Below are positions 31,815 to 64,000 of a DNA stretch of 64,000 bases, in pieces. Below the pieces are notes generated by a model. The model made no database searches. It saw nothing but the letters and a program-made list of their open reading frames with translations, and was not told the origin of the DNA. The position numbers were made by a program, and so were the translations under genes. This DNA comes from an uncultured Oscillospiraceae bacterium (GTDB lineage: Bacteria; Bacillota; Clostridia; Oscillospirales; Ruminococcaceae). How positions within the stretch are numbered: the first letter of the stretch is position 1; every line of letters starts with the position of its first letter. Location of the stretch: assembly GCA_964369965.1 (NCBI GenBank), contig CAYJGF010000006.1:2321-66320 (forward strand), in the 5' to 3' direction.

Positions 31815-33752
31815 ATGAAAGAGAAATTTTATATTACCACCCCCATCTATTACCCGTCCGATAAACTGCATATCGGTCATGCCTACTGCACCGTCATGGC
31901 GGACGCGGTGGCACGGTATCATAGGATGTGTGGCAAGGATGTCCTTTTCCTGACCGGCACCGACGAGCACGGCAAGAAGATAGAGGACCGCGCGGCAGAC
32001 AAGGGAGTCACGCCAAAGCAGTATGTGGACGAAATTGTCGCCGGCATTAAGGACTTATGGAAGTTGATGAACGTCAGCTACGACCGTTTTATCCGCACCA
32101 CCGACGACTACCACGAGCAATCGGTCGCGAAAATATTTAAAAAGCTGTACGACAACGGCGATATCTATAAGGATAGGTACGAGGGGCACTACTGCAAGCC
32201 GTGCGAGAGTTTTTGGACAAAAACACAGCTTGTCGAGGAGAAATGTCCCGACTGCTCCGGCGATGTCACCCTCGAAAGTGAGGAGGCATATTTCTTCCGC
32301 CAAAGCAAATACGCCGATCGCCTGCTTGAACTGTACGAGCAAAACCCGACCTTTATCCAACCGAACACGCGCAAAAACGAGATGGTGTCCTTTATCAAAC
32401 AGGGGCTTAGTGACCTTTGTGTTTCCCGCACTTCGGTCAAATGGGGCATACCGGTGGACTTTGATCCAACACACACCGTATATGTCTGGATTGATGCGCT
32501 AACCAACTATATCAACGCCCTCGGATACGAGAATAAGGAGTATTCCGATTTTGAGCGTTACTGGCCTGCCGAGTTGCATCTTGTCGGCAAAGAGATACTG
32601 CGCTTTCATGCAATTATCTGGCCGTCAATATTGATGGCGCTTGATCTGCCACTGCCAAAACAAGTTTACGGTCATGGTTGGTTGCTTTTTTCCGGTGGCA
32701 AGATGAGCAAGTCCAAGGGCAATGTCATCGACCCCGGTATCCTTTGTGAGCGATATTCCGTCGATGCGATACGCTACTTTTTACTGCGCGAGGTGGCCTT
32801 TGGCAGTGATGGTGAGTTCTCTAACGAGGCTTTATTTGCTCGAATTAATCAGGACCTCGCCAACGACCTCGGCAATCTGCTCTCACGCACAGTGTCCATG
32901 CAGATGAAATACTTCGGCGGCACACTGCCGAGCGAGCAGTGCGGCGGCGACGAGGACGAGGAACTGTTGCAAAAGATGAAAAACGTCGCTCAAAATGTCG
33001 AAAAGGCGATGGAGCTCCACAACATGCCGGAGGCACTCGGCGCGATCTTTGAGGTGGTCGGCAGTGCCAACCGCTATATCGATAAAACCTCCCCTTGGGC
33101 ACTCGCCAAGGAGGAGGCAAACAAACCGCGTCTTGCACGGGTGATGTACAACCTCGGTGAAGCACTTCGCCACGTCGGTGTACTGCTCTCGCCGTTTATG
33201 CCGGACGCATCGGTCAAGATACTCGGGGCGCTCTCGCTCACCCCCGAGTTGGGCGGTGGCAACTATGCGACACTGTCCTGTGCACTTGCGCCGGACTTTA
33301 CCGCCGTGCAGATACCGGCGCTCTTCCCGAGGATTGACATTGAAATGGAGCTGGCGGCGTTAGAGGAGCATCTGCCCAAAAAAGCGGTTGAGAAAAAACC
33401 TGCCAAGGTAGAAACACCCGTCAAACCGGACGAAATTTCATTTGACGATTTTATGAAGTGCCACCTTATCTGCGCCGAGGTCAAGGCGTGCGACAAGGTT
33501 AAAGGTGCGGACAAGCTGTTGCAACTTACCCTGTTTGACGGTGAGCGGGAGCGCAGTGTCGTCTCCGGCATAGCACAGTTTTATACCGCCGAGGAGCTTA
33601 TCGGCAAAAAAATAGCGCTGGTCGCCAACCTGAAGCCGGCGAAACTGCGCGGTGTTTTAAGCGAGGGCATGATTCTCGCCGCCGACAACGGTGACGATGT
33701 GGAGGTGCTGTTCCTGCCAAAAGATTTGCCCTGTGGGAGTAGGATCAGATAG
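31815..33752 (+). CDS. metG: Methionine--tRNA ligase with a C-terminal tRNA-binding (EMAP/Trbp111-like) domain
   Basis: YYPSDKLHIGHAY (HIGH), KMSKSKGN, a Cys4 knuckle CKPCESF...CPDCSG, and a C-terminal VVSGIAQFY...LKPAKLRGVLSEGMIL. Confidence 0.95.
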   Translation: MKEKFYITTPIYYPSDKLHIGHAYCTVMADAVARYHRMCGKDVLFLTGTDEHGKKIEDRAADKGVTPKQYVDEIVAGIKDLWKLMNVSYDRFIRTTDDYHEQSVAKIFKKLYDNGDIYKDRYEGHYCKPCESFWTKTQLVEEKCPDCSGDVTLESEEAYFFRQSKYADRLLELYEQNPTFIQPNTRKNEMVSFIKQGLSDLCVSRTSVKWGIPVDFDPTHTVYVWIDALTNYINALGYENKEYSDFERYWPAELHLVGKEILRFHAIIWPSILMALDLPLPKQVYGHGWLLFSGGKMSKSKGNVIDPGILCERYSVDAIRYFLLREVAFGSDGEFSNEALFARINQDLANDLGNLLSRTVSMQMKYFGGTLPSEQCGGDEDEELLQKMKNVAQNVEKAMELHNMPEALGAIFEVVGSANRYIDKTSPWALAKEEANKPRLARVMYNLGEALRHVGVLLSPFMPDASVKILGALSLTPELGGGNYATLSCALAPDFTAVQIPALFPRIDIEMELAALEEHLPKKAVEKKPAKVETPVKPDEISFDDFMKCHLICAEVKACDKVKGADKLLQLTLFDGERERSVVSGIAQFYTAEELIGKKIALVANLKPAKLRGVLSEGMILAADNGDDVEVLFLPKDLPCGSRIR

Positions 33753-35586
33753 CGGAAGATGTTACGGCATAAACATGATATCCCCCATCGCTGAAAAGAG
33801 GTGTAAGATCTTCATCCTCGACCGGCTCCCCCTCCAACAAAATATAATCCACCAAAAGGCTCGACAGTATATCATGTCGGGCCTTTTCTGATAGGGCTGT
33901 ATCAAAAACCTCCTGTCGAGAAGGTGTACAGACGCGCCCCGACATAGCCGAGACAAACTCCTCCCCACCCTGAACATTGCTCATTATCATGGAGGAATTT
34001 TCGGTATTGTCGCGGATAAACTTGAGCGCACCGTGCATGGTCGGGTCAAACATCTGCTGTTCTTCATATTCGACATAACCGAAATTTTGCAGCTGTGTGA
34101 GCACACCACCGTACATCACTGCCCCGATATTAAAGATACCGAAAAGACAGGATATTCCGATAAATGCCATCGCCGTCACGCTTTTTTTGCGAGCAAAGGC
34201 GCGAAAGACGTTTATCGCACCGCTCAACAGGACGAGAGTTACCAACACCTTGTAACCGCCCTCAATCAAAAAAGCACCACATAGCGCGAGGGTGAAGGTC
34301 AACAGGAAAAGCAGTCTTAAATAGCCACTGATTTTTATATTTTTCAAGGTTTTGACCCCTTGCGAGACACTCGGAAAGAGGAATGGGAACAAGATGAATA
34401 ATATGCTCAATATCACCGTTATCGGGAACATTATGTTATAAAGCAAAACCGAAACGGTGTAACTCTCACGCAACAGCCCATCAAACAGACCGCTCATCTT
34501 GAACTGCTCACATGGCGCTATATTATAAATATAATCATGGCAGAGCGTGAAAAACAGACCGAATAAAATTATCAGCGCAAGATACACACGCAGATAAAAT
34601 CGTTTTGTGACGGTATAAAGGACGGCAATTATGAACTGGGCAACCAACAAAAACAGCGCATATAAAGGCTCCGACAGGCAAAGCACCAGATAGCACAGTA
34701 GCATCGGCAGGAGTGACAACAGCCATGACGACACACCGCCGTTCACCTTTGCGGATATGCCGGCGAGGGCGATGATGTTTGCTATCATCAGCGTTAATAT
34801 AAAACAAAATTCACCCGATAAAAGCAACTGTTCGCTCGCGAAAAAGCCATTATCGAATATCGGCAGGACTAGCGGCGATGCAAAGAGGAATAAGAGCGTT
34901 GACAGCAGGGCGCGGTGTCGGTTTTTAAGGTATCGGTCGGTAAGCGAGTAGACCGATACCGCGGTGCATATTAAGAATACGAGAGGCAGATAAAACGCGG
35001 CTATATCATAGAGCGGTAGACCGAACAAATGCCCGACAGCGGCAACTATAAGGTCATAAACCTCGCCGGTGAATAGCCGCTCGGCGATAAACGAGTCGCT
35101 CGGCAGTAATAAAACCGCGTCGGAGATGTCTTTGTATAGCTTTTCATCGGCAAAGGGTACCGGCGCGAAGTTTGGTAGTGCAACCCTCGGCAGGGTGCAG
35201 AGCGCGAACACAAGCCCCACAAAGGACAACAAAAGTCCATGCCGATGAATTTCGGGGCGATATTCACCGCCATACAGTTTAAAAAGCCCCATTGCACCTA
35301 TCAGTGGCGGTACACCGTAGAAAACGGCGCTTATGCCGCTTAGCAAAAATACGATATAGCAGGACAAAAACACAACAAACCCGAGCGCAAACGCCGTCGG
35401 AATAAAATGCTCTTTGATATTGCAGTTAAGGCAGATGTAAACACCCGGCAACAAAACATAGAGCAAAAGCCCCACAGCAACGCTCACCATCGCAATCACC
35501 GAGCCGCCATTCCATAAAACAGCACAGCAAAGGACGAGGGCGCAGGCAATAAATATGCTTTTTTTGCGCAGGATTTTGTCAATCAT
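33745..35586 (-). CDS. Large polytopic membrane protein (about 14 TM helices) with a C-terminal soluble domain, unknown function
   Basis: 613 aa, hydrophobic throughout residues 1..470. The start overlaps the addA stop (ATGA-type overlap at 35583..35586). Confidence 0.6.
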   Translation of the reverse strand: MIDKILRKKSIFIACALVLCCAVLWNGGSVIAMVSVAVGLLLYVLLPGVYICLNCNIKEHFIPTAFALGFVVFLSCYIVFLLSGISAVFYGVPPLIGAMGLFKLYGGEYRPEIHRHGLLLSFVGLVFALCTLPRVALPNFAPVPFADEKLYKDISDAVLLLPSDSFIAERLFTGEVYDLIVAAVGHLFGLPLYDIAAFYLPLVFLICTAVSVYSLTDRYLKNRHRALLSTLLFLFASPLVLPIFDNGFFASEQLLLSGEFCFILTLMIANIIALAGISAKVNGGVSSWLLSLLPMLLCYLVLCLSEPLYALFLLVAQFIIAVLYTVTKRFYLRVYLALIILFGLFFTLCHDYIYNIAPCEQFKMSGLFDGLLRESYTVSVLLYNIMFPITVILSILFILFPFLFPSVSQGVKTLKNIKISGYLRLLFLLTFTLALCGAFLIEGGYKVLVTLVLLSGAINVFRAFARKKSVTAMAFIGISCLFGIFNIGAVMYGGVLTQLQNFGYVEYEEQQMFDPTMHGALKFIRDNTENSSMIMSNVQGGEEFVSAMSGRVCTPSRQEVFDTALSEKARHDILSSLLVDYILLEGEPVEDEDLTPLFSDGGYHVYAVTSSAI

Positions 35587-53976: not shown

Positions 53977-54606
53977 ATGAACAAAAAAACTGCCATAGAG
54001 ATAATAGAACTGCTGAAAAAAGCCTACCCCGAGGAGGAGTGCAGTCTCTCCCACACCGACCCGTACCATCTACTGGTGTCGGTTCGCCTTGCCGCGCAGT
54101 GCACCGACAAGCGCGTCAACATGGTCACGCCGGCACTTTTTGAGCGTTTCCCCACCCCATTTGCCATGAAAGATGCCGACATTGGGGAGGTGAGCGAGCT
54201 TATCCGCTCCACCGGTTTTTTCCGCTCCAAGGCGCGCGACCTTATCCTTTGCGCAAATCAACTGTGTGAGCGGCACGACGGCAGAGTGCCGGATAACATG
54301 GAGGAGCTACTCGCCCTCGCCGGAGTGGGGCGCAAATCGGCAAATTTAATACTCGGTGACATCTTCGGTCAACCGGCGATAGTTGCCGACACCCATTGCA
54401 TACGCATTACCGGACGTCTCGGCATGGTGACGAGCAAGGATCCCACCAAGGTGGAGATGCAGTTGCGAGCGATTATACCACCAAACGAGGGGAATTCCTT
54501 TTGCCACCGTCTTGTAATGCACGGGCGCGCCGTCTGTGATGCACGAAAACCGCGGTGTGAAGTCTGCACACTCGCGGTACACTGTCGAGATTTTTCCGGT
54601 GTATAA
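53977..54606 (+). CDS. nth: Endonuclease III
   Basis: HhH-GPD (LLALAGVGRKSANL) and a C-terminal 4Fe-4S loop CDARKPRCEVCTLAVHC. The ATG at 53977 is preferred. Confidence 0.9.
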   Translation: MNKKTAIEIIELLKKAYPEEECSLSHTDPYHLLVSVRLAAQCTDKRVNMVTPALFERFPTPFAMKDADIGEVSELIRSTGFFRSKARDLILCANQLCERHDGRVPDNMEELLALAGVGRKSANLILGDIFGQPAIVADTHCIRITGRLGMVTSKDPTKVEMQLRAIIPPNEGNSFCHRLVMHGRAVCDARKPRCEVCTLAVHCRDFSGV

Positions 54607-54607
54607 A

Positions 54608-55951
54608 ATGGATCTATTCTTTAAAAATCATAACGAAAAATACAAGCCGGAGAATATTATTCGGCTTTTTTTCCCCGACATAAAACTGCGGCACACTCGG
54701 CGCGCAGGGGATAACTATCTGTATTTTCGACGCGGTAAAAAAAGAGTTTTTATTGTATTGATAGAAAACGGTGTCAAACAAACCCTCCTCACCCACGGCG
54801 ATGCAGAAAAAACGCTCTATGACTTCCTAGCACTGCATACCGGTCGAGTTTTACCGTGGGGGATGCTCAACGGTGTGCGACCGCTTTGGCTGTACCGTCA
54901 GCGCGCCCTCGCAGGCAAAAACCATGACGAAATTTCAAACGAGCTTGCCACGACCTATGAGGTGACACAGCCAAAAATTGACCTGTTGCGCCGTTGTTAT
55001 GATACTCAAAACGCAATGCCGATAAATTCGGCGCGCGACGCCTATAGTCTATACGTCTCAATACCTTACTGCCCGTCGCGCTGTCGCTACTGTAGCTTTA
55101 TCTCCATGTCGGCGAACGATACCGCCGAAATGTCACTCTATCTTAAATTGCTTTTAGAGGAGATCACCGAGATATCACGCACGGTGACAATCCCTCCACT
55201 CACCGTCTATGTTGGGGGAGGTACACCGAGCGTCCTCTCGGCAGAGCAGTTGCGGCGACTGCTTAATCACATAAACGAACTGTTCCGACCCACACAAGAA
55301 TTCACCGTTGAGGCAGGCAGGCCGGACTGCACCGACCGTGAAAAACTTAAAGTTTTAAAGGAATACGGGGTGGGCAGAATTTCAATAAACCCCCAGACCT
55401 TTAACGACGCGACACTGCTCTCTATCGGCAGACTGCACTCAGCGAGCGACATCTACCGCTGTTTTAATGAGGCGCGCGAACTTGGTCACGACAACATAAA
55501 CATGGATTTGATTTCCGGTCTGCCGAACGATTCACTTGAGGGGTTTAATCACAGCCTGCGTGAGACGATAAAGCTTGCGCCGAACAGCATAACGGTGCAC
55601 AGCTTCACCCAAAAGACCGGCTCACACCTATCGCAGGAGCATCTCGCACCATGGCCCGATGTCGCCATGATGGCGGTATATCGTGACGAGATGATGGAGC
55701 AAAACGACTACAACCCATATTATATATATCGGCAGAAAAAAACCCCCTCGGGGCTTGAGAATGTAGGATACTCCCAAAGGGGGTATGAGTGCCTGTATAA
55801 TGTCTATATGATGGACGAGCTACATGGCGTCATCTCGGCAGGTGCCGGCGGTGTGACAAAATTCGTGAGTGGTGAGCGCAAAATCATACGTGAATTCCAT
55901 TCAAAATACCCCAAAGAATATATAAACGATCGGATCGCCGCACACGATTAA
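54608..55951 (+). CDS. hemZ: HemZ-type coproporphyrinogen dehydrogenase-like radical SAM protein
   Basis: YVSIPYCPSRCRYCSF radical-SAM cluster and a HemN-like core with the N-terminal extension typical of HemZ. The start is 2 nt after the nth stop. Confidence 0.75.
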   Translation: MDLFFKNHNEKYKPENIIRLFFPDIKLRHTRRAGDNYLYFRRGKKRVFIVLIENGVKQTLLTHGDAEKTLYDFLALHTGRVLPWGMLNGVRPLWLYRQRALAGKNHDEISNELATTYEVTQPKIDLLRRCYDTQNAMPINSARDAYSLYVSIPYCPSRCRYCSFISMSANDTAEMSLYLKLLLEEITEISRTVTIPPLTVYVGGGTPSVLSAEQLRRLLNHINELFRPTQEFTVEAGRPDCTDREKLKVLKEYGVGRISINPQTFNDATLLSIGRLHSASDIYRCFNEARELGHDNINMDLISGLPNDSLEGFNHSLRETIKLAPNSITVHSFTQKTGSHLSQEHLAPWPDVAMMAVYRDEMMEQNDYNPYYIYRQKKTPSGLENVGYSQRGYECLYNVYMMDELHGVISAGAGGVTKFVSGERKIIREFHSKYPKEYINDRIAAHD

Positions 55952-56354: not shown

Positions 56355-58007
56355 TCAACTCTCTCTCACCGTTTCCATATTCAAAATGTTATCCGCTATC
56401 TTCACCGTGGACTTTCTGTGCGATACCAACACCACGGTTTTATCGCTACAGGCTTTTAACGACTTTAGGATAACCGCCTCGTTCAAGCTGTCGAGGTTGC
56501 TTGTCGGCTCGTCCAACATAATCAGGCTTGCGTCGTGCAAAAATGCCCTCGCCACGCCTATACGTTGTTTTTCCCCACCCGATATGGTGTCGGCGAGCTC
56601 ACCGAGCATCGTGTCATAACCGTCATCAAGGCATTCGATAAAATCGTGGAGCGACGCCCTTTTTGCCGCACTTATAACCTCATCGCGGTCGGCATTGATA
56701 TTTGCTATTTTAATATTGTTTTCGATTGTATCGCGGAAAACATGCGTCTCCTGCGTGACTAAACTCTCGTTGTCTCTAAGGCTTTTGGTGTTGATACCTC
56801 TCACATTTTCACCCGAGATTAAAACGTCACCGCCCTGCACGTCATAAAACCTCATCAAAAGTTTCAGCGCCGTGGATTTTCCGCATCCGCTCTTTCCGCT
56901 TATCACTAAAATTTTGTTTTTTTCTATATTTAGCGAATAGTTGTTCAATATTTTTTCGCCGTCATAGGAGAAGTCCACAGCAGCAAAACTTGCGTCTTTA
57001 AATTCGATATCCTTGCCGTTTTTCACCTCTTTAACAACGGGGACATCGTCTAAAATGTCCAGCACTCTATTGCCGGCAGCTATCGTCTGTGCAAGCCCTG
57101 CACCTAAGTTCGCCACCGACGACACCGCCCCGAAAGAGGAAAAAAGCAGGAGCGTGGGCACTATAACCGAGGTTATGTCTAAATAATTTCGTATGTATAA
57201 ACCGCTTGCAACAAAAAACAGGATAACCGAAAAGCAAAGTATAGCAAGGTTGGTCAGCGAGTATGTTCTCCCGAAATAGTTTTTGAGCACCTTGTTCGAG
57301 CTTTCAATCTGCCTTGACAGTTCGGTGAGTTTGCCTTTGCGTGCGTCGATATAATTATACTGCAAAACCTCCTTTATACCACGCAGGCTGTCAAGGAAGT
57401 ATGTGTTGAGACCGCCCACCTTTTCACGGTGCACCTCACCGCTGCTTTTACTTTTCCCTGCGACGATAACAGGCATCATTACGCCTACCGTCAGGTGCGC
57501 TAAAAGTGCTATCAAGCCGAGAAGTATATTAAAACTGCCGATAAACCCGACTATTATCGTTGAGGTTATCAGTGCAATACAGATGGGGGAGACGGTGTGA
57601 GCGTAGAATACCTCTAAAAGCTCTATATCAGAGGTGATTATGGAGACGAGGTTGCCCTTGTCCCTGCCGTCGAGTTTTGCAGGGGCAAGTTTTCTCAGCG
57701 CCGTGAACACCTTATCACGAATCAGCGCGAGAAGTTTGAAGGCTATAAAATGGTTGCAATACTGTTCTATATAGTGCAAAACCCCTCGAAAGACCGCTAT
57801 CAACGCCAACACAGCGATGAAAATTGCAACGTTTGCACCGTCGGTATTTATGATATCCAACAGGGCATATCCGCCCATAACGGTGATGAAGCTTGCGCAA
57901 AAATAGCCGAGACACCCCGTAATAATTGCGATGATCATGACCGGTGCGAGCGGCTTCACAAGACCGGTAAGTCGTGATAAAACCATGAGCGATGAGCGTT
58001 TTTTCAT
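56355..58007 (-). CDS. cydC: ABC exporter, fused permease-ATPase, CydC-like (thiol reductant exporter subunit)
   Basis: Six TM helices plus an NBD (GKSGCGKST, ISGGEKQR, LIMLDEPTS). It is paired by a 4-nt overlap with a CydD-like partner. The family assignment is by recall of N-terminal and size pattern. Confidence 0.6.
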   Translation of the reverse strand: MKKRSSLMVLSRLTGLVKPLAPVMIIAIITGCLGYFCASFITVMGGYALLDIINTDGANVAIFIAVLALIAVFRGVLHYIEQYCNHFIAFKLLALIRDKVFTALRKLAPAKLDGRDKGNLVSIITSDIELLEVFYAHTVSPICIALITSTIIVGFIGSFNILLGLIALLAHLTVGVMMPVIVAGKSKSSGEVHREKVGGLNTYFLDSLRGIKEVLQYNYIDARKGKLTELSRQIESSNKVLKNYFGRTYSLTNLAILCFSVILFFVASGLYIRNYLDITSVIVPTLLLFSSFGAVSSVANLGAGLAQTIAAGNRVLDILDDVPVVKEVKNGKDIEFKDASFAAVDFSYDGEKILNNYSLNIEKNKILVISGKSGCGKSTALKLLMRFYDVQGGDVLISGENVRGINTKSLRDNESLVTQETHVFRDTIENNIKIANINADRDEVISAAKRASLHDFIECLDDGYDTMLGELADTISGGEKQRIGVARAFLHDASLIMLDEPTSNLDSLNEAVILKSLKACSDKTVVLVSHRKSTVKIADNILNMETVRES

Positions 58008-59728
58008 CCGTTTGCCACCCCCATTGTCTCAAGATTTTGTTGTGTGGTCCAAAGTTCGCTGTACCGACCCCCGTTCAAGAGCAGTTCGTCGTGTGTGCCA
58101 CTCTGTGCTATACCACCGTCACAAAGCATATATATCTTGTCGGAGGTTATTGCATTCAACAGACGATGTGATATAAGTATAACGGTTTTTGTGCGCGTCA
58201 AACCTTTTATCACCTCCATTATTTCATTTTCGCTGTCGGCGTCTATGTTGCTTGTCGCCTCGTCAAAAATGTATAGCTCGCTGTCATGAAGTAAAGCCCT
58301 TGCAAGTGCTAAACGTTGACACTGCCCACCCGAGAAGTTACTGCCTTTTTCAAGCAGAGCGGTGTCAAGACCGCTTTGGTTAAGTAAAAACTCTTTTAAA
58401 TTAACCTTTGACAGCACCTGCCACATCTCCTCCTCGGTGGCATCGTTCTTTGCGATGAGAAGATTTTCCGCCACCGTGCCCTTGAATATATAGGAGTTTG
58501 CCGACACAAGGGTTATATGCCTTGCCAAACTGCTCCTTGATAGCTGCGAGAGTTCCACTCCCCCGATTGTGACACTGCCACCGTAGCCCTCGTTGTTTTG
58601 CGTTAAAATGCCGGCTATGGTTGATTTACCGGAGCCGCTCACCCCCACTATTGAGACAAAGCTGTTTTTAGGTATATCCATATTAATGTCGGTCAAGATT
58701 GTTTTTTGATCATATGCAAAATCAAGACCGTTTATCTTTATATCCACCCCGTTGACCTCTTTTGTTTTAAGAGGGCTATCCTCTATATCGAGCAGGGTGA
58801 ATATTTTTTTACTTGCGGCGATACCGTTCATTGCAATGTGAAAAAAACTGCCTAAAATTCTAAGTGGCAGGAAAAAATCGGCACTTAGCAGGATTACCGT
58901 GAACATCCCCACGAGCGATAGATTGCCGCCGTTAAATTCAAGCAACGCAAAAATTATGCCGAGTGCGGCGCCGCCATATGCAACAATATCCATAATGATT
59001 ATGGAGTTTAACTGCATGGACAACACCTTCATGGTAACTACCCTAAAGCGTTCCGCTTGACGATTCATCTGAGCGTGTTTATATTCGTCACTGCTATAAA
59101 TTTTCAGCGTGTTAAGCCCCTGCAGGTTCTCCAGAAAGTTATCACCCAGCCCCAGATACTCCCCCCAATATTTTGCGAGCAGTTTTTTTGCAAACTTTTG
59201 GACAAGCACTATAGAAATAGGGATCAAGGGGACGCAGACAAACAGTATTAACGCTACCTTAAAATTAAAAAAAGACACCACCGCAAACAGGATAAGCGGT
59301 GATATCATGGAATAGAAAAACTGTGGCAGAAAATTGCCAAAGTATGTTTCAAGCTGTTCGACGCCCTCTACCGACATCTGCAAAAGCTCGCCGGTGGGGA
59401 TTTTTTTGTTGTATCTGCCACCGAGACTTATGACCTTGTCGTAGATTTTTTCGCGCAAGATAACCTTAACCGATCTTGAGGCAAGATAGCTTTGAGTGCT
59501 CGCTAAATATATTGTAACAACCTTGATTGCAATGCAAAAAGCAACAATTACGGCGTATCGAAAAAACCCGTTTGTAATTATGGTTTTATTGATTAAGGCG
59601 TCGATAAACACACTGATGGTTATCATCAAAACTATATTTGATAAAAGCCCCGTCAACTGCAAAGCAACATTTTTTGCAATGTGTGCGGCTGCATCCGGCA
59701 CCATCTTTATCAATCTTTTGTTAATCAT
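58004..59728 (-). CDS. cydD: ABC exporter, fused permease-ATPase, CydD-like
   Basis: Six TM helices plus an NBD (GVSGSGKST, FSGGQCQR, LYIFDEATS). No N-terminal C39 peptidase domain. Confidence 0.6.
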   Translation of the reverse strand: MINKRLIKMVPDAAAHIAKNVALQLTGLLSNIVLMITISVFIDALINKTIITNGFFRYAVIVAFCIAIKVVTIYLASTQSYLASRSVKVILREKIYDKVISLGGRYNKKIPTGELLQMSVEGVEQLETYFGNFLPQFFYSMISPLILFAVVSFFNFKVALILFVCVPLIPISIVLVQKFAKKLLAKYWGEYLGLGDNFLENLQGLNTLKIYSSDEYKHAQMNRQAERFRVVTMKVLSMQLNSIIIMDIVAYGGAALGIIFALLEFNGGNLSLVGMFTVILLSADFFLPLRILGSFFHIAMNGIAASKKIFTLLDIEDSPLKTKEVNGVDIKINGLDFAYDQKTILTDINMDIPKNSFVSIVGVSGSGKSTIAGILTQNNEGYGGSVTIGGVELSQLSRSSLARHITLVSANSYIFKGTVAENLLIAKNDATEEEMWQVLSKVNLKEFLLNQSGLDTALLEKGSNFSGGQCQRLALARALLHDSELYIFDEATSNIDADSENEIMEVIKGLTRTKTVILISHRLLNAITSDKIYMLCDGGIAQSGTHDELLLNGGRYSELWTTQQNLETMGVANG

Positions 59729-59796
59729 TAAAAACCCGTTTAATATTATAAGAAATTAGTCGGAACTAACACGCTCTAATTTTAATATAAAACCGA

Positions 59797-60681
59797 TTAA
59801 ATGTCAAGTGTGCCCTCAACCTTGGTCGAGGATAGTGTTATTTTCGGCTTCTTGTAGCTAAAACACAGTGCATTTGTGGGGCAGACTTTAGTGCATTCAA
59901 GGCATCTTATGCATTCACCGTCGTCCGGTTTTTCGGCGGGGTTCACCTGCATTTTGCAGGTTTTTTCACATTTTTTGCAGGACACACACCGCTCTTTATC
60001 GACATGCAATCGCAAAAACGACACCTTGTTGAACAGTGCATATATAGCACCGAGTGGGCAGACGTATTTACAAAAAGGTCGATAAATAATTATGCTTGCG
60101 GTGATAGTCACCGCTAAAATAATGTTTTTATGTATGTACAGATAGCCAAGACCGCCGCGAAGCCCCTCGTTTAAAAGCACGAGCGGTATTCCGGCCTCAA
60201 GAGTGCCGGCAGGGCAGATATATTTGCAAAATGCTGGGGAGCCGAGGCCGGAAAAATCAACCCAAAACATGGGCAACAGTACAACAAAAACAAGCAGTAT
60301 GACATATTTCAGATACCGCAGTGCTCGGTCGTATTTAAAAGTGTCTATCTTAACAAAGAATTTAATCTTGTGAAGCAACTGTTGAATAAGCCCGAACGGA
60401 CACAAAAATCCGCAGACAAACCTTGCGAAGAACGCACCGAACGCTATGAGAAAGCCGAGCACATAAAACGGTATGTTAAATCCGCGTGAACCTATTGCCG
60501 CCTGCAACGAGCCAATCGGGCAACTGCCTAAAGCACCGGGGCAGGAATAGCAGTTAAGCCCCGGTGCGCAGACGGATTTGAGACTGCCGGTATAGATTCT
60601 ACCGGTCACAAAACCGTATAAATATCCGTTGGAGAGGGCGGCCCACAACACCTGAATAGCGAGTCTAAACCTTGCAAGCAT
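59797..60681 (-). CDS. Polytopic 4Fe-4S (NapH/MauN-like polyferredoxin) membrane protein
   Basis: TM helices with CxxCP motifs (CYSCPGALGSCP, CKYICPAG, CKYVCPLG) and a C-terminal CVSCKKCEKTC...CIRCLECTKVCP. The ATG at 60681 overlaps the upstream small ORF's stop (ATGA). Confidence 0.75.
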   Translation of the reverse strand: MLARFRLAIQVLWAALSNGYLYGFVTGRIYTGSLKSVCAPGLNCYSCPGALGSCPIGSLQAAIGSRGFNIPFYVLGFLIAFGAFFARFVCGFLCPFGLIQQLLHKIKFFVKIDTFKYDRALRYLKYVILLVFVVLLPMFWVDFSGLGSPAFCKYICPAGTLEAGIPLVLLNEGLRGGLGYLYIHKNIILAVTITASIIIYRPFCKYVCPLGAIYALFNKVSFLRLHVDKERCVSCKKCEKTCKMQVNPAEKPDDGECIRCLECTKVCPTNALCFSYKKPKITLSSTKVEGTLDI

Positions 60682-60827
60682 CACCCGATCCCCACACATT
60701 CAAGACATATGTTGACGGACTTGATAAGCAGATTGCCGACCTGCCCGTCCAGCACACCGATAAGCAACATCACAAGCCCTATAAGGACAAGCAACAGCGA
60801 CATCACCGTCCTTTTTTTATCAGTCAT
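60681..60827 (-). CDS. 48-aa membrane peptide with a C-terminal CXXC (CD1871A-like)
   Basis: Hand translation gives MTDKKRTVMSLLLVLIGLVMLLIGVLDGQVGNLLIKSVNICLECVGIG*. RBS AGAGGGTG. It lies below the ORF-track cutoff. Confidence 0.6.
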   Translation of the reverse strand: MTDKKRTVMSLLLVLIGLVMLLIGVLDGQVGNLLIKSVNICLECVGIG

Positions 60828-60841
60828 AGATAATACACCCT

Positions 60842-61576
60842 CTAAAGAGTCATGTCAAGGTTTTCGAGTTCGTACTCGATTACCTCTCGCCAGCTCGCCT
60901 TATCCCTCGCACCGGTGTATATATCGCCTACAATATTGCCGTTTGAGTCCACAAACACGGTGGTGGGGTACGCCTGTACGCTATATAAAATAGTGTCATA
61001 AAGAACCGTGTCGGGGAATACGGTCGGGAACTGCACACCGGAATCTCTCAATATCTGATCACCTGCGGCGAGCGCCTGATCATCGACACCGCTCGAAACA
61101 ATCACGTCGGTTAATATGCCGACTATACCGACATCAAACTCCTCCATTTCATGCGCAAGCTCGGCAAGCTCCGGCATTTCGGCTACACAAGGTGGGCACC
61201 ATGTCGCCCAGACGTTCACAAGGGTCAACTTGTTTTCCGTGAAAATGTCGGCGGTGATAGCCTCCCCTTCAAAGTTCACGGTATCAAGACCGAACATATC
61301 CGCGCCCTCGGCAACGGTGCCGGGGACAAACCCCGATGTCTCCTCCACCTGCTCGGTGTTTTCCTGCTCGACAGGCATTTCCGGCGTATCGGTCTCGACC
61401 GGCTCGGCGGTGTCGACATTTTCCTCTTCCGACTGCATGTCATCAATTATCGCCTGCGCTGTCGCGGCGGCAGCATTGAAGTCGTCGTCAAATGTCCCGA
61501 CAGTTTCCTCACCGCAACCGAACAACAGCAACGATATGCTAAGTAAAATAATTATTCTTTTCATGTCCACACTCAC
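60842..61576 (-). CDS. TlpA/ResA-like thioredoxin-fold lipoprotein
   Basis: Lipobox LLLFGC, an acidic linker, and a thioredoxin motif WATWCPPC. Confidence 0.85.
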   Translation of the reverse strand: MSVDMKRIIILLSISLLLFGCGEETVGTFDDDFNAAAATAQAIIDDMQSEEENVDTAEPVETDTPEMPVEQENTEQVEETSGFVPGTVAEGADMFGLDTVNFEGEAITADIFTENKLTLVNVWATWCPPCVAEMPELAELAHEMEEFDVGIVGILTDVIVSSGVDDQALAAGDQILRDSGVQFPTVFPDTVLYDTILYSVQAYPTTVFVDSNGNIVGDIYTGARDKASWREVIEYELENLDMTL

Positions 61577-62880: not shown

Positions 62881-63139
62881 TTTAAGTATAGTCCTTTCTT
62901 TTTCAGATTATTGCTCCCCTTTTAAGCGATAATAATTATTACTTCATGTAGTATTCTATAACATAACAACAAAAAAATCAATCTTTTTTGAAAAAAAATA
63001 TTCCAAAACCCGTTTTCCCCTTGTAATGCTTGTTGTTGTAGTAATATTTTTGCCATAATAAAAAAATTTACAAAAAATATTAGCCATCCGCAAATTACTG
63101 CCGTATAAATAGTTAAACAACAAAAACAAGGAGATCGAC

Positions 63140-63382
63140 ATGAGCGACAAAATGTTAGAAAAGAATGCCGACATGGTGGAACAAAACGAGATGGGTGACG
63201 AAAACCTCACCGACGTTGCAGGCGGTAGCGTCAGTTTTTTGGGTAAAGAGGGCGGCTACACACACTCCTGTTTGGACTGCCAATTCCCTTTTAAAAATGT
63301 GTCTGAAGGCATGAATAACTGTCCAAGGTGCGGTGGCATGCTTAGACCGTTAAAACCATACATTCCAAACACTAATTTTTAA
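63140..63382 (+). CDS. Double-glycine-leader peptide precursor, Cys4 core (paralog 1)
   Basis: RBS AAGGAGA. Leader MSDKMLEKNADMVEQNEMGDENLTDVAGG. The 51-aa core contains CLDC...CPRCGG. Confidence 0.7.
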   Translation: MSDKMLEKNADMVEQNEMGDENLTDVAGGSVSFLGKEGGYTHSCLDCQFPFKNVSEGMNNCPRCGGMLRPLKPYIPNTNF

Positions 63383-63403
63383 ACTGATAAGGAGTACATG
63401 ACA

Positions 63404-63622
63404 ATGAATAACGAAAAAATAACCCCCATCGCCGAGACAGGCGAAGTTGCCGACGAGAATCTCACCGACGTTGCAGGCGGCAATGCGGGCAGACGCCCCA
63501 CAAGTTATAACTACGTTTGCACGAGTTGCCAAACCCCTTTAACGTACAAAGTTTCAAACGTAGAAACTTGCTGGAAGTGTGGCGGGAGGCTTATGCTACA
63601 ACCCGATCGATATGGTCGCTAA
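63404..63622 (+). CDS. Double-glycine-leader peptide precursor, Cys4 core (paralog 2)
   Basis: RBS AAGGAG lies 9 nt before the ATG at 63404 (only 3 nt before the ORF-track ATG at 63398). Leader ...GEVADENLTDVAGG. The 46-aa core contains CTSC...CWKCGG. Confidence 0.7.
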   Translation: MNNEKITPIAETGEVADENLTDVAGGNAGRRPTSYNYVCTSCQTPLTYKVSNVETCWKCGGRLMLQPDRYGR

Positions 63623-63649
63623 CCGTGATAATTAAAGGAGAACAATCTG

Positions 63650-63859
63650 ATGGATAACAATAAATCGAACCCCGGTGCAGAGCAGAGCGAGCTCAAAGAC
63701 GAAAATCTTTCTGACGTTTCGGGGGGATTTTACAGCCGACCGCCGACCACTGTAAGATGCTCTAAATGCAAAACCCACACCACCCTCTACGGCTATGGCG
63801 AGAGATGCCCGATAAAGGGATGTTCCGGCGTACTTGAACGTGTCGCCCAGTACTTGTAA
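63650..63859 (+). CDS. Double-glycine-leader peptide precursor, Cys4 core (paralog 3)
   Basis: RBS AAAGGAG. Leader ...SELKDENLSDVSGG. The 43-aa core contains CSKC...CPIKGC. Confidence 0.7.
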   Translation: MDNNKSNPGAEQSELKDENLSDVSGGFYSRPPTTVRCSKCKTHTTLYGYGERCPIKGCSGVLERVAQYL

Positions 63860-63880
63860 CTACATAAAAAGGAGGAAAAT

Positions 63881-64000
63881 ATGACCTTTGCAGATGATGA
63901 ACAAAACACCACCACCATGCAGGACGATAGAGCGCAAAACCTTTTTAAAATCATGTCGGAATACGGCGTTGATGTATCGCTCGAAGATGTGCAGGAACTG
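63881..64000 (+). CDS. Fourth co-oriented ORF of the peptide cluster (5' part only, runs off the window)
   Basis: RBS AAAGGAGGA followed by ATG. MTFADDEQNTTTMQDDRAQNLFKIMSEYGVDVSLEDVQEL... Identity unknown. Confidence 0.4.
   Translation, partial: MTFADDEQNTTTMQDDRAQNLFKIMSEYGVDVSLEDVQEL

What the first reader, a model, noticed from the sequence alone, without database searches (positions are those of the whole stretch)
63140..64000. Tandem array of paralogous double-glycine-leader peptides with zinc-ribbon-like Cys4 cores: RiPP/bacteriocin-like precursor cluster running off the window
Three consecutive small genes each have a strong RBS, and the intergenic gaps are 15 to 27 nt. They encode 26-29-aa acidic leaders ending in a near-identical motif: DENLTDVAGG, DENLTDVAGG and DENLSDVSGG. 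The motif is also conserved at the nucleotide level (gacga(a/g)aa(c/t)ctcaccgacgttgcaggcgg). The cores are divergent, 43 to 51 aa long, and each carries two Cys pairs: CLDC-x15-CPRCGG, CTSC-x13-CWKCGG and CSKC-x12-CPIKGC. A conserved leader with hypervariable cores is the hallmark of ribosomally synthesised peptide precursors. Double-glycine leaders are established for class II bacteriocins, class II lanthipeptides and several radical-SAM-modified peptide families, where a C39-peptidase ABC transporter cleaves after the GG. The cores are unusual for those families. They are long and basic, rich in Thr, Ser and Tyr, and have the CxxC...CxxC(G) spacing of a zinc ribbon rather than a typical lanthipeptide or sactipeptide pattern. 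A fourth co-oriented ORF starts at 63881 and is cut by the window end. No maturase, immunity gene or C39 transporter is visible, and the nearby CydDC-like exporters lack a C39 domain, so the decisive genes lie downstream.
Basis: partly seen in the sequence, partly recalled or inferred. Interest (0 to 1): 0.8.

Follow-up and report, generated by a model that had tools for sequence, protein, structure and literature searches.

The report
Secreted zinc-ribbon peptide precursor array
Three neighbouring small genes at the window's end encode peptides with a cleavable double-glycine export leader and a tiny zinc-ribbon-like core, a combination found in no curated family I searched; relatives and a shared promoter tie them to undescribed peptide-export clusters of gut bacteria, but the processing genes are not in the window.

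Summary
Three co-oriented paralogous genes (63140-63382, 63404-63622, 63650-63859) each have a strong RBS. Each encodes an acidic 26-29 aa leader ending DENL(T/S)DV(A/S)GG and a divergent basic Cys4 core. A fourth ORF is cut by the window end.

The cores match solved zinc ribbons, by profile search and by predicted fold. No Pfam or NCBIfam model covers the peptides. Among 5.8 billion protein clusters they are singletons.

Weakly related peptides with the same build exist in gut anaerobes. Several lie in clusters that hold a C39-peptidase ABC exporter of the NHLP type, an ECF sigma factor, Nif11-leader precursors and an uncharacterised radical-SAM/SPASM enzyme. The array's promoter carries an exact copy of a motif (TAGCC-N16-CGTATAAA) that recurs in those clusters, on the coding strand only.

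Best reading: these are ECF-sigma-controlled precursors, cleaved after GG and exported as zinc-ribbon-like mini-peptides. Radical-SAM tailoring is possible but not shown. The 64 kb window holds no maturase, C39 exporter or cognate sigma, and the downstream DNA could not be fetched. In one relative such genes are scattered, so those genes may not lie downstream.

Verdict: a new variant of a known kind. Interest is moderate to high.

The parts
63081..63109 (+). Promoter motif TAGCC-N16-CGTATAAA (TTAGCC at 63080-85; CGTATAAA at 63102-09). It ends about 30 nt before the ORF1 start codon. Proposed target of an ECF-type sigma factor.
   Evidence: It is the only hit in the window, even when 2 mismatches are allowed. 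With up to 1 mismatch, 0.16 hits are expected by chance. The same motif with the same 16-nt spacer lies upstream of the closest homologue in L003 and in L004, L144 (twice), L167, L168, L170, L172 and L185. In 66 related loci the + strand has 9 exact and 7 one-mismatch hits; the - strand has none of either. That an ECF sigma recognises it is inferred.
63128..63133 (+). RBS AAGGAG of ORF1, 6 nt before the ATG
   Evidence: Read directly.
63140..63382 (+). Precursor 1, 80 aa. Leader at 63140-63226 (29 aa, ends DENLTDVAGG). Core at 63227-63379 (51 aa, CLDC-x13-CPRCGG).
63389..63394 (+). RBS AAGGAG of ORF2. It lies 9 nt before the ATG at 63404 and only 3 nt before the ATG at 63398.
   Evidence: Read directly.
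63404..63622 (+). Precursor 2, 72 aa (74 aa if it starts at 63398). Leader at 63404-63481 (26 aa, ends DENLTDVAGG). Core at 63482-63619 (46 aa, CTSC-x13-CWKCGG).
63635..63640 (+). RBS AAGGAG of ORF3, 9 nt before the ATG
   Evidence: Read directly.
63650..63859 (+). Precursor 3, 69 aa. Leader at 63650-63727 (26 aa, ends DENLSDVSGG). Core at 63728-63856 (43 aa, CSKC-x12-CPIKGC).
63870..63875 (+). RBS AGGAGG of ORF4, 5 nt before the ATG
   Evidence: Read directly.
63881..64000 (+). ORF4, first 40 codons only (MTFADDEQNTTTMQDDRAQNLFKIMSEYGVDVSLEDVQEL). Identity unresolved; possibly a longer-leader precursor.
   Evidence: One search gives the translation. No homologue was found and no NCBIfam family hit. 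It scores 5.0 bits against a Nif11-like leader HMM and 4.0 bits against the sigma-associated small-protein HMM. Neither score beats shuffled controls.

Best explanation
The three genes, and probably ORF4, form one transcription unit driven by a promoter of the TAGCC-N16-CGTATAAA type. I take this to be the target of an ECF-type sigma factor like those encoded in related peptide-export clusters.

Proposed mechanism. Each gene gives a precursor with an acidic double-glycine leader. A C39-peptidase ABC transporter (PCAT), encoded outside the window, binds the leader through the hydrophobic residues at -4 (V), -7 (L) and -12 (M/V/L). It cleaves after GG and exports the 43-51 aa basic core. The core is a Cys4 zinc-ribbon-like mini-domain, held together by zinc or, outside the cell, by two disulfides. 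Its variable surface differs between the paralogues, as expected for bacteriocin-like or signalling cargo.

The short leader lacks the Nif11-like N-terminal domain carried by the main radical-SAM-associated precursors in relatives. I therefore consider export without radical-SAM tailoring somewhat more likely than tailoring.

What is shown: the genes, the RBSs, the leader/core conservation pattern, the zinc-ribbon similarity, the shared build with peptides in PCAT/rSAM clusters, and the shared promoter motif.

What is inferred: sigma dependence, GG cleavage, export, metal binding and biological activity.
For: Anatomy
- ORFs, RBSs and leader conservation are as described.
- No plausible intrinsic terminator separates the ORFs on the + strand. 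The only + strand candidate falls inside the ORF1 leader-coding sequence.
- The leader has hydrophobic residues at -4, -7 and -12. These are the positions that form the recognition knot in PCAT1-CtA and LahT. PCAT1 exports a 66-aa cargo (PMC6959990).

Zinc-ribbon character
- The profile of A4 hits solved C4 zinc ribbons at E 7e-5 to 4e-4.
- The AlphaFold core has block-mean pLDDT of 75-85 and the leader is disordered.
- The top Foldseek matches are Nob1, LapB, Sir2 and PolD zinc modules.

Family
- An exhaustive HMM search of 1.84 billion representatives found other peptides with a GG leader and a CxxC..CxxC core.
- An HMM trained only on 15 such peptides from exporter/rSAM loci ranks the three window peptides 1-3 of 819 window segments. 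They score 33-39.5 bits; the next best scores 10 bits.

Context of relatives
- L001/L002: precursor array, rSAM/SPASM, ECF sigma, STAS, a short HlyD-like fragment, NHLM_micro_ABC1 with a C39 domain (927 bits, cut-off 853) and ABC2 (758 bits, cut-off 709).
- L144: PCAT, ABC2, sigma and a GG-peptide array.
- L141-143 and L166-L172: a short-leader zinc-ribbon peptide directly after the rSAM gene.
- L192: three short-leader zinc-ribbon peptides in tandem just before the rSAM gene.
- Within a locus, short leaders share the GG-proximal leader tail with the Nif11-leader precursors.

Promoter
- The motif is exact in the window and in L003, L004, L144, L167, L168, L170, L172 and L185. It occurs on the + strand only. 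It lies before sigma operons and before precursor genes.
Against: - No C39 transporter, ECF sigma homologue, STAS or rSAM/SPASM of the relatives' type exists in the 64 kb window (tblastn).
- The window's radical-SAM gene is HemZ (421.6 bits).
- DNA downstream of 64000 could not be obtained.
- Similarity to relatives is weak: E 1e-4 to 1e-3 in the whole-library search. It rests on two simple elements, the leader tail and the Cys knuckles, so convergence is not excluded.
- No curated leader model is matched: TIGR01847 and TIGR03798 give no hit.
- Several relatives are solitary, with no exporter within several kb (L004, L034, L070, L075, L196).
- Sigma dependence of the motif is inferred from position and from the CGTA -10 element only.
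- No expression, cleavage, export or metal data exist.
Confidence: 0.5

Rival explanations
1. These are true RiPP precursors. Before GG cleavage and export, a radical-SAM/SPASM maturase cross-links or otherwise modifies the core, for example by Cys-derived thioethers as in sactipeptides or ranthipeptides. The maturase would belong to the family found next to relatives and would be encoded downstream or elsewhere in the genome.
For: - Short-leader zinc-ribbon peptides lie within about 30 nt of a conserved rSAM/SPASM gene in L141-143 and L166-L172. They lie just upstream of it in L192, L001 and L002.
- The rSAM enzymes of L001 and L141 are 53% identical.
- They have the CxxxCxxC motif and a SPASM domain above the Pfam cut-off (28.5 bits, cut-off 21.5).
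- 51 metagenomic loci with this enzyme all carry GG-leader precursor arrays where flanks are available.
- Only the Cys residues are invariant in the cores. That would fit Cys-donor cross-links with variable acceptor residues.
Against: - The enzyme's main neighbours are Nif11-leader precursors whose cores start GG|GC or GG|C. The window peptides have neither the Nif11 domain nor that start.
- No such enzyme is present in 63 kb upstream.
- Among contexts found through the peptide rather than through the enzyme, only about 2 of about 8 informative ones have an adjacent rSAM gene.
- No RRE/PqqD domain was detected in the enzyme's N-terminal 92 aa.
- The chemistry is unknown, and no NCBIfam equivalog is reached.
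Confidence: 0.3
2. These are intracellular small zinc-ribbon proteins, for example regulators or nucleic-acid binders, with an acidic N-terminal tail. The GG motif is not a cleavage site.
For: - The core resembles cytoplasmic zinc ribbons such as Rpb12/RpoP, eL43 and small CPxCG proteins.
- No exporter is visible in the window.
- Some relatives are solitary or lie on prophage-like DNA next to toxin-antitoxin genes (L070, L196).
Against: - The leader tail is the most conserved part of the gene, at the DNA level as well.
- It has the canonical -4/-7/-12 hydrophobic pattern plus GG.
- The same leader tail is shared with undisputed Nif11-leader precursors next to C39 exporters in relatives.
- Tandem paralogues with hypervariable cores are typical of secreted peptides.
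Confidence: 0.1
3. These are class II lanthipeptide precursors, processed by a LanM encoded downstream.
For: They have a GG leader and cores containing Ser, Thr and Cys.
Against: - The Cys residues sit in paired CxxC knuckles that match zinc ribbons.
- No LanM-like or LanBC-like gene appears among the called genes of the relatives whose gene lists were returned.
- Of the three ORFs of 1000 aa or more in the window, the two near the array are AddA and AddB. The window was not searched directly for a LanM.
- No lanthipeptide family model is matched.
Confidence: 0.04

Closest known systems
Double-glycine-leader substrates of peptidase-containing ABC transporters (class II bacteriocin type; for example CtA/PCAT1, and LahT substrates)
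   Same: An acidic 24-29 aa leader ends in GG with hydrophobic residues at -4, -7 and -12. The cargo is a few dozen residues long. The genes occur as tandem paralogues.
   Different: The cargo is a Cys4 zinc-ribbon-like module. I found no description of this for such substrates. The curated leader model TIGR01847 is not matched. No C39 transporter lies nearby.
NHLP/Nif11-leader RiPP systems with the TIGR03794/03796/03797 export cassette (Haft et al. 2010, PMC2887384)
   Same: Relatives of the window peptides lie in clusters with NHLM_micro_ABC1 and ABC2 above their cut-offs. Those clusters also hold Nif11-leader precursors above the TIGR03798 cut-off. The cores are hypervariable and occur in arrays.
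   Different: The window peptides have a short leader with no Nif11 domain and give no TIGR03798 hit. The export cassette is not in the window.
Radical-SAM/SPASM thioether RiPPs (sactipeptides such as the ruminococcin C arrays; ranthipeptides/SCIFF; the TIGR04149 GG-leader rSAM targets of Bacteroidota)
   Same: They have Cys-rich cores and multi-copy precursor genes. In relatives an rSAM/SPASM gene is adjacent. Peptide 3 gives a weak TIGR04149 hit (14.2 bits, cut-off 25).
   Different: The Cys spacing is that of a zinc ribbon (CxxC-x12/13-CxxC), not the patterns I recall for sactipeptides or ranthipeptides. The relatives' enzyme reaches no curated equivalog: StsB scores 87 bits against a cut-off of 625, and WgkB 88 against 650. 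No maturase is seen in the window.
Small stand-alone zinc-ribbon / CPxCG zinc-finger proteins (for example RNA polymerase subunit Rpb12/RpoP, eL43, PDB 8q5b)
   Same: Two CxxC knuckles with CPxCG-like motifs flank a short beta hairpin. The profile matches them and so does the predicted fold.
   Different: Those proteins are cytoplasmic and have no cleavable GG leader. They are not encoded as hypervariable tandem arrays.

Membership tests
Double-glycine leader / PCAT substrate | Gly-Gly (or GA/GS) at -2/-1, followed by the cargo | tested here: met
   AGG|S, AGG|N and SGG|F in the three peptides.
Double-glycine leader / PCAT substrate | Hydrophobic residues at -4, -7 and -12 of the leader (the recognition knot; PMC6959990) | tested here: met
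   V at -4, L at -7 and M/V/L at -12 in all three. Read; the rule comes.
Double-glycine leader / PCAT substrate | Match to the curated leader model TIGR01847 (bacteriocin_sig) | tested here: not met
   No hit at E<=10. The model is 15 positions long, and HMMER's filters may drop weak hits.
Double-glycine leader / PCAT substrate | A cognate C39-peptidase ABC transporter in the genome, usually nearby | not testable with these tools
   None in the 64 kb window. Downstream DNA and the rest of the genome were not retrievable.
Double-glycine leader / PCAT substrate | Cleavage after GG and export | not testable with these tools
   Needs experiment.
Nif11-like leader RiPP precursor (TIGR03798) | A Nif11-like N-terminal leader domain that matches TIGR03798 above 32.3 bits | tested here: not met
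   No hit for peptides 1-3 or for the ORF4 fragment. Relatives in L001 do meet it, at 35-41 bits.
Radical-SAM/SPASM-modified RiPP (sactipeptide/ranthipeptide type) | An rSAM/SPASM maturase encoded with the precursors | tested here: inconclusive
   Absent from the window; HemZ is unrelated. Present next to some relatives. Downstream DNA is unknown.
Radical-SAM/SPASM-modified RiPP (sactipeptide/ranthipeptide type) | Post-translational cross-links in the mature peptide | not testable with these tools
   Needs mass spectrometry or NMR.
Zinc ribbon | Two Cys pairs (knuckles) separated by a beta hairpin | tested here: met
   CxxC-x13-CxxC, CxxC-x13-CxxC and CxxC-x12-CxxxxC. In the model, strands flank the knuckles.
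Zinc ribbon | Significant similarity to known zinc ribbons | tested here: met
   The profile against PDB gives PolD DP2 at 7e-5, Rpb12 at 1.2e-4 and RpoP at 3e-4. Single-sequence Pfam hits stay below cut-off: PF17283 scores 20.9 bits against 28.1. Foldseek matches are to zinc modules but at E>=0.1.
Zinc ribbon | Zinc bound by the four Cys residues | not testable with these tools
   Needs metal analysis.
Class II lanthipeptide | A LanM synthetase with the precursors | tested here: inconclusive
   No LanM-like gene appears in the gene lists returned for the related loci. Of the three ORFs of 1000 aa or more in the window, the two near the array are AddA and AddB. The window was not searched directly for a LanM, and downstream DNA is unknown.

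The most novel reading that the evidence does not exclude
The array represents an undescribed class of secreted bacterial peptides: zinc-ribbon mini-domains carried on double-glycine leaders. They would belong to a dispersed ECF-sigma regulon of gut Firmicutes. That regulon also includes a large uncharacterised radical-SAM/SPASM family that acts on Nif11-leader precursors beginning GG|GC. In the strongest version, the radical-SAM enzyme uses the zinc-ribbon Cys residues as cross-link donors, giving a new RiPP scaffold. In addition, the small leader-like 'SAAG' protein co-transcribed with the sigma factor would couple exporter activity to transcription.
Probability: 0.25. Interest if true: 0.8.

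Novelty: new variant of a known kind. Interest (0 to 1): 0.6.

Why it matters
Double-glycine leaders and peptidase-containing ABC exporters are well understood. As far as I could find, a folded zinc-ribbon-like cargo has not been described for them. If these peptides are exported, they would be a compact, metal- or disulfide-stabilised scaffold with a naturally hypervariable surface. That is of interest as bacteriocins or signals in gut communities and as an engineering scaffold.

The comparison also points to a sizeable unstudied system in human-gut metagenomes. Its parts are a conserved radical-SAM/SPASM enzyme, Nif11-leader precursors with a Cys directly after the cleavage site, an ECF sigma factor and a recognisable promoter motif. 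The motif gives a practical handle for finding scattered members of the regulon. Gene-neighbourhood mining would miss those members, and the array in this window is one of them.

Tried and rejected
- **Exact look-ups.** Look-ups of the three peptides and of the neighbouring 383-aa gene found nothing on record, so the source contig could not be extended. The protein collection does hold the three peptides as singletons on one 106,977-bp NCBI contig.
- **First genome-contig scan.** The scan with the three-peptide profile gave 47 pattern matches and no relative.
- **ORF4.** The 40-aa fragment found no homologue and no family. Its by-eye resemblance to Nif11-like leaders (..ENGIELTAEDAQ..) scores 5.0 bits, no better than shuffles. 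Its resemblance to the sigma-associated small proteins scores 4.0 bits, rank 83 of 1995. I leave ORF4 unassigned.
- **Viral contigs.** The leader-motif scan returned only chance or unrelated matches.
- **Second genome-contig scan.** It returned mostly unrelated GG-leader peptides or GC-rich chance matches. Only L034, L070 and L075 had Zn-like cores.
- **Window radical-SAM gene (54536-55951).** Rejected as a possible maturase. It is HemZ, and it has no similarity to the relatives' enzyme.
- **CydDC-like ABC pair.** Rejected as the exporter. It has no C39 domain; its best families are CydC/CydD, below their cut-offs.
- **RRE/PqqD domain.** Not detected in the relatives' enzyme.
- **Rfam.** No match in the window.
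- **Repeats.** No convincing regulatory repeats near the array beyond the promoter motif.
- **Literature.** Searches combining zinc ribbon with RiPP, double-glycine or bacteriocin found nothing relevant. Paywalled literature was not searchable.
Full report
**1. What is in the sequence**

The last 860 bases of the window hold three complete ORFs and one truncated ORF, all co-oriented. They follow a 259-bp AT-rich gap after a divergently transcribed GFO/IDH/MocA gene.

Each ORF is preceded by AAGGAG or AGGAGG at 5-9 nt. For ORF2 this spacing fits the ATG at 63404 better than the one at 63398.

| Precursor | Coordinates | Leader | Core |
|---|---|---|---|
| 1 | 63140-63382 | 29 aa, ends DENLTDVAGG | 51 aa, CLDC-x13-CPRCGG |
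| 2 | 63404-63622 | 26 aa, ends DENLTDVAGG | 46 aa, CTSC-x13-CWKCGG |
| 3 | 63650-63859 | 26 aa, ends DENLSDVSGG | 43 aa, CSKC-x12-CPIKGC |

The leaders are acidic (net -4 to -6) and the cores are basic (+2 to +5). The leader is more conserved than the core:
- leader identity is 50-58%;
- the last ten leader residues are 80-100% identical;
- core identity is 24-29%, and most of that is the Cys residues.

The degenerate DNA motif for the leader end occurs three times in the window, against none in 100 shuffles. No plausible + strand terminator separates the genes.

**2. The two halves of each peptide**

*Leader.* It carries V at -4, L at -7 and M/V/L at -12 before GG. The PCAT1-CtA and LahT structures identify exactly these positions as the leader's contacts with the C39 peptidase domain. 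PCAT1 exports a 66-aa cargo, so 43-51 aa is within range (PMC6959990).

*Core.* Single-sequence Pfam and NCBIfam scans give only sub-threshold zinc-ribbon hits. A profile of 15 family members is more informative. It hits experimentally solved C4 zinc ribbons:
- PolD DP2 at E 7e-5;
- Rpb12 at 1.2e-4;
- RpoP at 3e-4;
- eL43 and a small CPxCG zinc finger.

An AlphaFold model of peptide 1 has a disordered leader. Residues 41-70 form short strands with block-mean pLDDT of 75-85. Its nearest PDB folds are zinc-ribbon or rubredoxin-like modules (Nob1, LapB, Sir2, PolD) at 1.5-1.8 A over about 33 columns. As expected for so small a domain, the E-values are not significant.

**3. Relatives**

The peptides are singletons among 5.8 billion protein clusters. 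All three sit on one 106,977-bp NCBI contig that I could not retrieve.

An exhaustive HMM search of 1.84 billion representatives found weak hits (E 1e-4 to 1e-3) that have the same two-part build. A second search, seeded with those hits, found more. The closest are P0013 and P0016. Their leader ends DENLTEVAGG, and P0016 is 38% identical to peptide 1.

An HMM trained only on 15 short-leader zinc-ribbon peptides taken from exporter/rSAM loci picks the three window peptides as the top three of 819 window segments. They score 33-39.5 bits; the next best scores 10 bits. This shows a shared build. Because the signal comes from a leader tail plus four Cys residues, common descent is likely but not proven.

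**4. Genomic context of the relatives**

- **L001 and L002.** Five or six precursor genes mix Nif11-like long leaders (TIGR03798, above cut-off) with short GG leaders. All have CxxC..CxxC cores. Next come a 471-aa radical-SAM/SPASM enzyme, an ECF sigma factor, a STAS protein and a short HlyD-like fragment. The cluster ends with the NHLP-type exporter pair, whose first subunit carries a C39 peptidase domain.
- **L144.** It has the exporter pair (the PCAT is 67% identical to L001's), a sigma factor, a SpoIIE-type phosphatase and about eight GG-leader genes.
- **L141-143.** An orthologous rSAM/SPASM gene, 53% identical to L001's, lies directly upstream of the short-leader peptide P0027.
- **Metagenome scan.** Scanning with this enzyme gave 51 loci, several from samples labelled human gut. 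The enzyme is preceded by arrays of up to seven Nif11-leader precursors whose cores nearly always begin GG|GC or GG|C. In several loci it is also flanked by short-leader zinc-ribbon peptides:
  - a conserved one directly downstream in L166-L172;
  - three in tandem directly upstream in L192.
- **The enzyme itself.** It reaches no curated equivalog. Its nearest solved structure is PqqE at E 6e-15. No RRE domain was detected.
- **Solitary relatives.** L004, L034, L070 and L075, and L196 on prophage-like DNA, show no exporter or maturase within the available flanks.

**5. A shared promoter**

Aligning the upstream regions of the window array and its closest homologue (L003) revealed ATATTAGCCA-N15-CGTATAAA in both.

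- The core motif TAGCC-N16-CGTAT[AC]AA occurs once in the window, at 63081-63109, about 30 nt before the ORF1 start codon. No other hit appears even with two mismatches allowed.
- It occurs exactly in L003, L004, L144 (twice), L167, L168, L170, L172 and L185.
- In the 66 related loci (462 kb) the coding strand has 9 exact and 7 one-mismatch copies. The opposite strand has none of either.
- The 119 unrelated loci from the genome scan (861 kb) have no exact copy. They have four one-mismatch copies. Three of these are in a Treponema GG-peptide locus, and one is in a locus with an ABC2 homologue.
- The copies lie before the operon of the small leader-like protein and the ECF sigma factor, and before precursor genes.

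From my own knowledge, a CGTA -10 element and self-regulation are typical of ECF sigma factors. I therefore read this motif as the target of the cluster sigma. That reading is an inference.

The motif is evidence from non-coding DNA, independent of the peptide sequences. It indicates that the window array belongs to the same kind of system.

The window has no homologue of that sigma, of the exporter or of the rSAM enzyme. L004 shows that such peptide genes can be scattered away from the machinery.

**6. Interpretation**

I commit to the following reading, at about 0.5 confidence. The array encodes ECF-sigma-controlled, double-glycine-leader precursors. A C39 ABC transporter encoded elsewhere cleaves and exports them. 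The product is a set of zinc-ribbon-like mini-peptides with variable surfaces.

Radical-SAM tailoring is the main rival, at about 0.3.
- *For tailoring:* some relatives are tightly adjacent to the enzyme.
- *Against tailoring:* the window peptides lack the Nif11 leader domain and the GG|GC start that mark the enzyme's obvious substrates. Also, only a minority of independently found contexts contain the enzyme.

An intracellular role (about 0.1) and a lanthipeptide origin (about 0.04) are less likely.

ORF4 cannot be assigned.

**7. Comparison with known systems, and novelty**

The array works like a class II bacteriocin or NHLP/Nif11-type export substrate. It fails the curated leader models, and it carries a cargo type that neither Pfam, NCBIfam nor the searchable literature describes. 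I rate it a new variant of a known kind.

The rest of the window is ordinary chromosome of a spore-forming Firmicute. It encodes SpoIIR, AddAB, PrkC, RsgA, RlmN, RsmB, SHMT and HemZ.

Noticed in passing
L145-L195 (for example L159 2638-7383, L170 4394-7566, L153 5531-7383), plus L001 and L002: An apparently uncharacterised radical-SAM/SPASM family (N-terminus ..ALRSWRLVPYAYY..) turned up in 51 metagenomic loci, several labelled human gut. It is always preceded by arrays of Nif11-leader precursors whose cores begin GG|GC or GG|C. Those cores range from 7-11-Cys peptides to almost Cys-free beta-rich domains. No NCBIfam equivalog is reached, and the nearest PDB entry is PqqE.
   Followed up: partly
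L170 3173-3379, L144 5864-6148, L153 7380-7568, L201 2736-2945, L001 10600-10791: A conserved small protein (..LFDYQKF..LSDDDLxxVSAAGE..) sits next to the ECF sigma gene in these clusters. In L170 and L153 it lies directly upstream of the sigma gene and overlaps it. Its C-terminal motif mimics a double-glycine leader but reads AAG. It might be an anti-sigma or decoy element that links exporter/peptidase activity to transcription. This is pure speculation.
   Followed up: no
window 56355-61576, minus strand: An operon-like run of genes lies about 1.5 kb upstream of the Cys-rich peptide array. It comprises a CydD/CydC-like ABC pair (below the equivalog cut-offs), a NapH-like polyferredoxin membrane protein and a lipoprotein thiol-disulfide oxidoreductase of the TlpA/ResA/DsbE type. 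A role in the redox state of secreted Cys peptides is conceivable but untested.
   Followed up: partly
L070 966-1190; P0023: Some GG-leader peptides have cores that look like C2H2 zinc fingers (CxxC...HxxxxH) rather than zinc ribbons. Leaders may be fused to more than one kind of small metal-binding module.
   Followed up: no
L196 1967-2155 (P0017) and flanks: A GG-leader zinc-ribbon peptide lies in a prophage-like setting. A helicase-like gene and a small gene, both without a Pfam hit on record, lie upstream, and a Phd/PIN toxin-antitoxin pair lies downstream. No exporter is visible.
   Followed up: no
L004 6216-6407, 6542-6739 and 10001-10276: Three different GG-leader peptide genes are scattered among unrelated genes with no exporter in 11 kb. 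Two have zinc-ribbon cores and one has a Nif11-like leader; the Nif11-like gene follows the promoter motif. This is an example of a dispersed regulon.
   Followed up: partly
window 63881-64000: If the ORF4 tail ..DVSLEDVQEL is read as leader positions -13 to -4, then V, V and L fall at -12, -7 and -4. A GG would then lie just past the window end. This is untestable here.
   Followed up: partly
window 33745-35586, minus strand: A 613-aa ORF next to addAB has no Pfam match at E<=1e-5.
   Followed up: no
L051 (Treponema sp. JC4) 3668, 3845, 7381: Three one-mismatch copies of the promoter motif (TTAGCC-N16-AGTATAAA) lie before GG-leader peptide genes in a spirochaete. The system may therefore extend beyond Firmicutes.
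   Followed up: no
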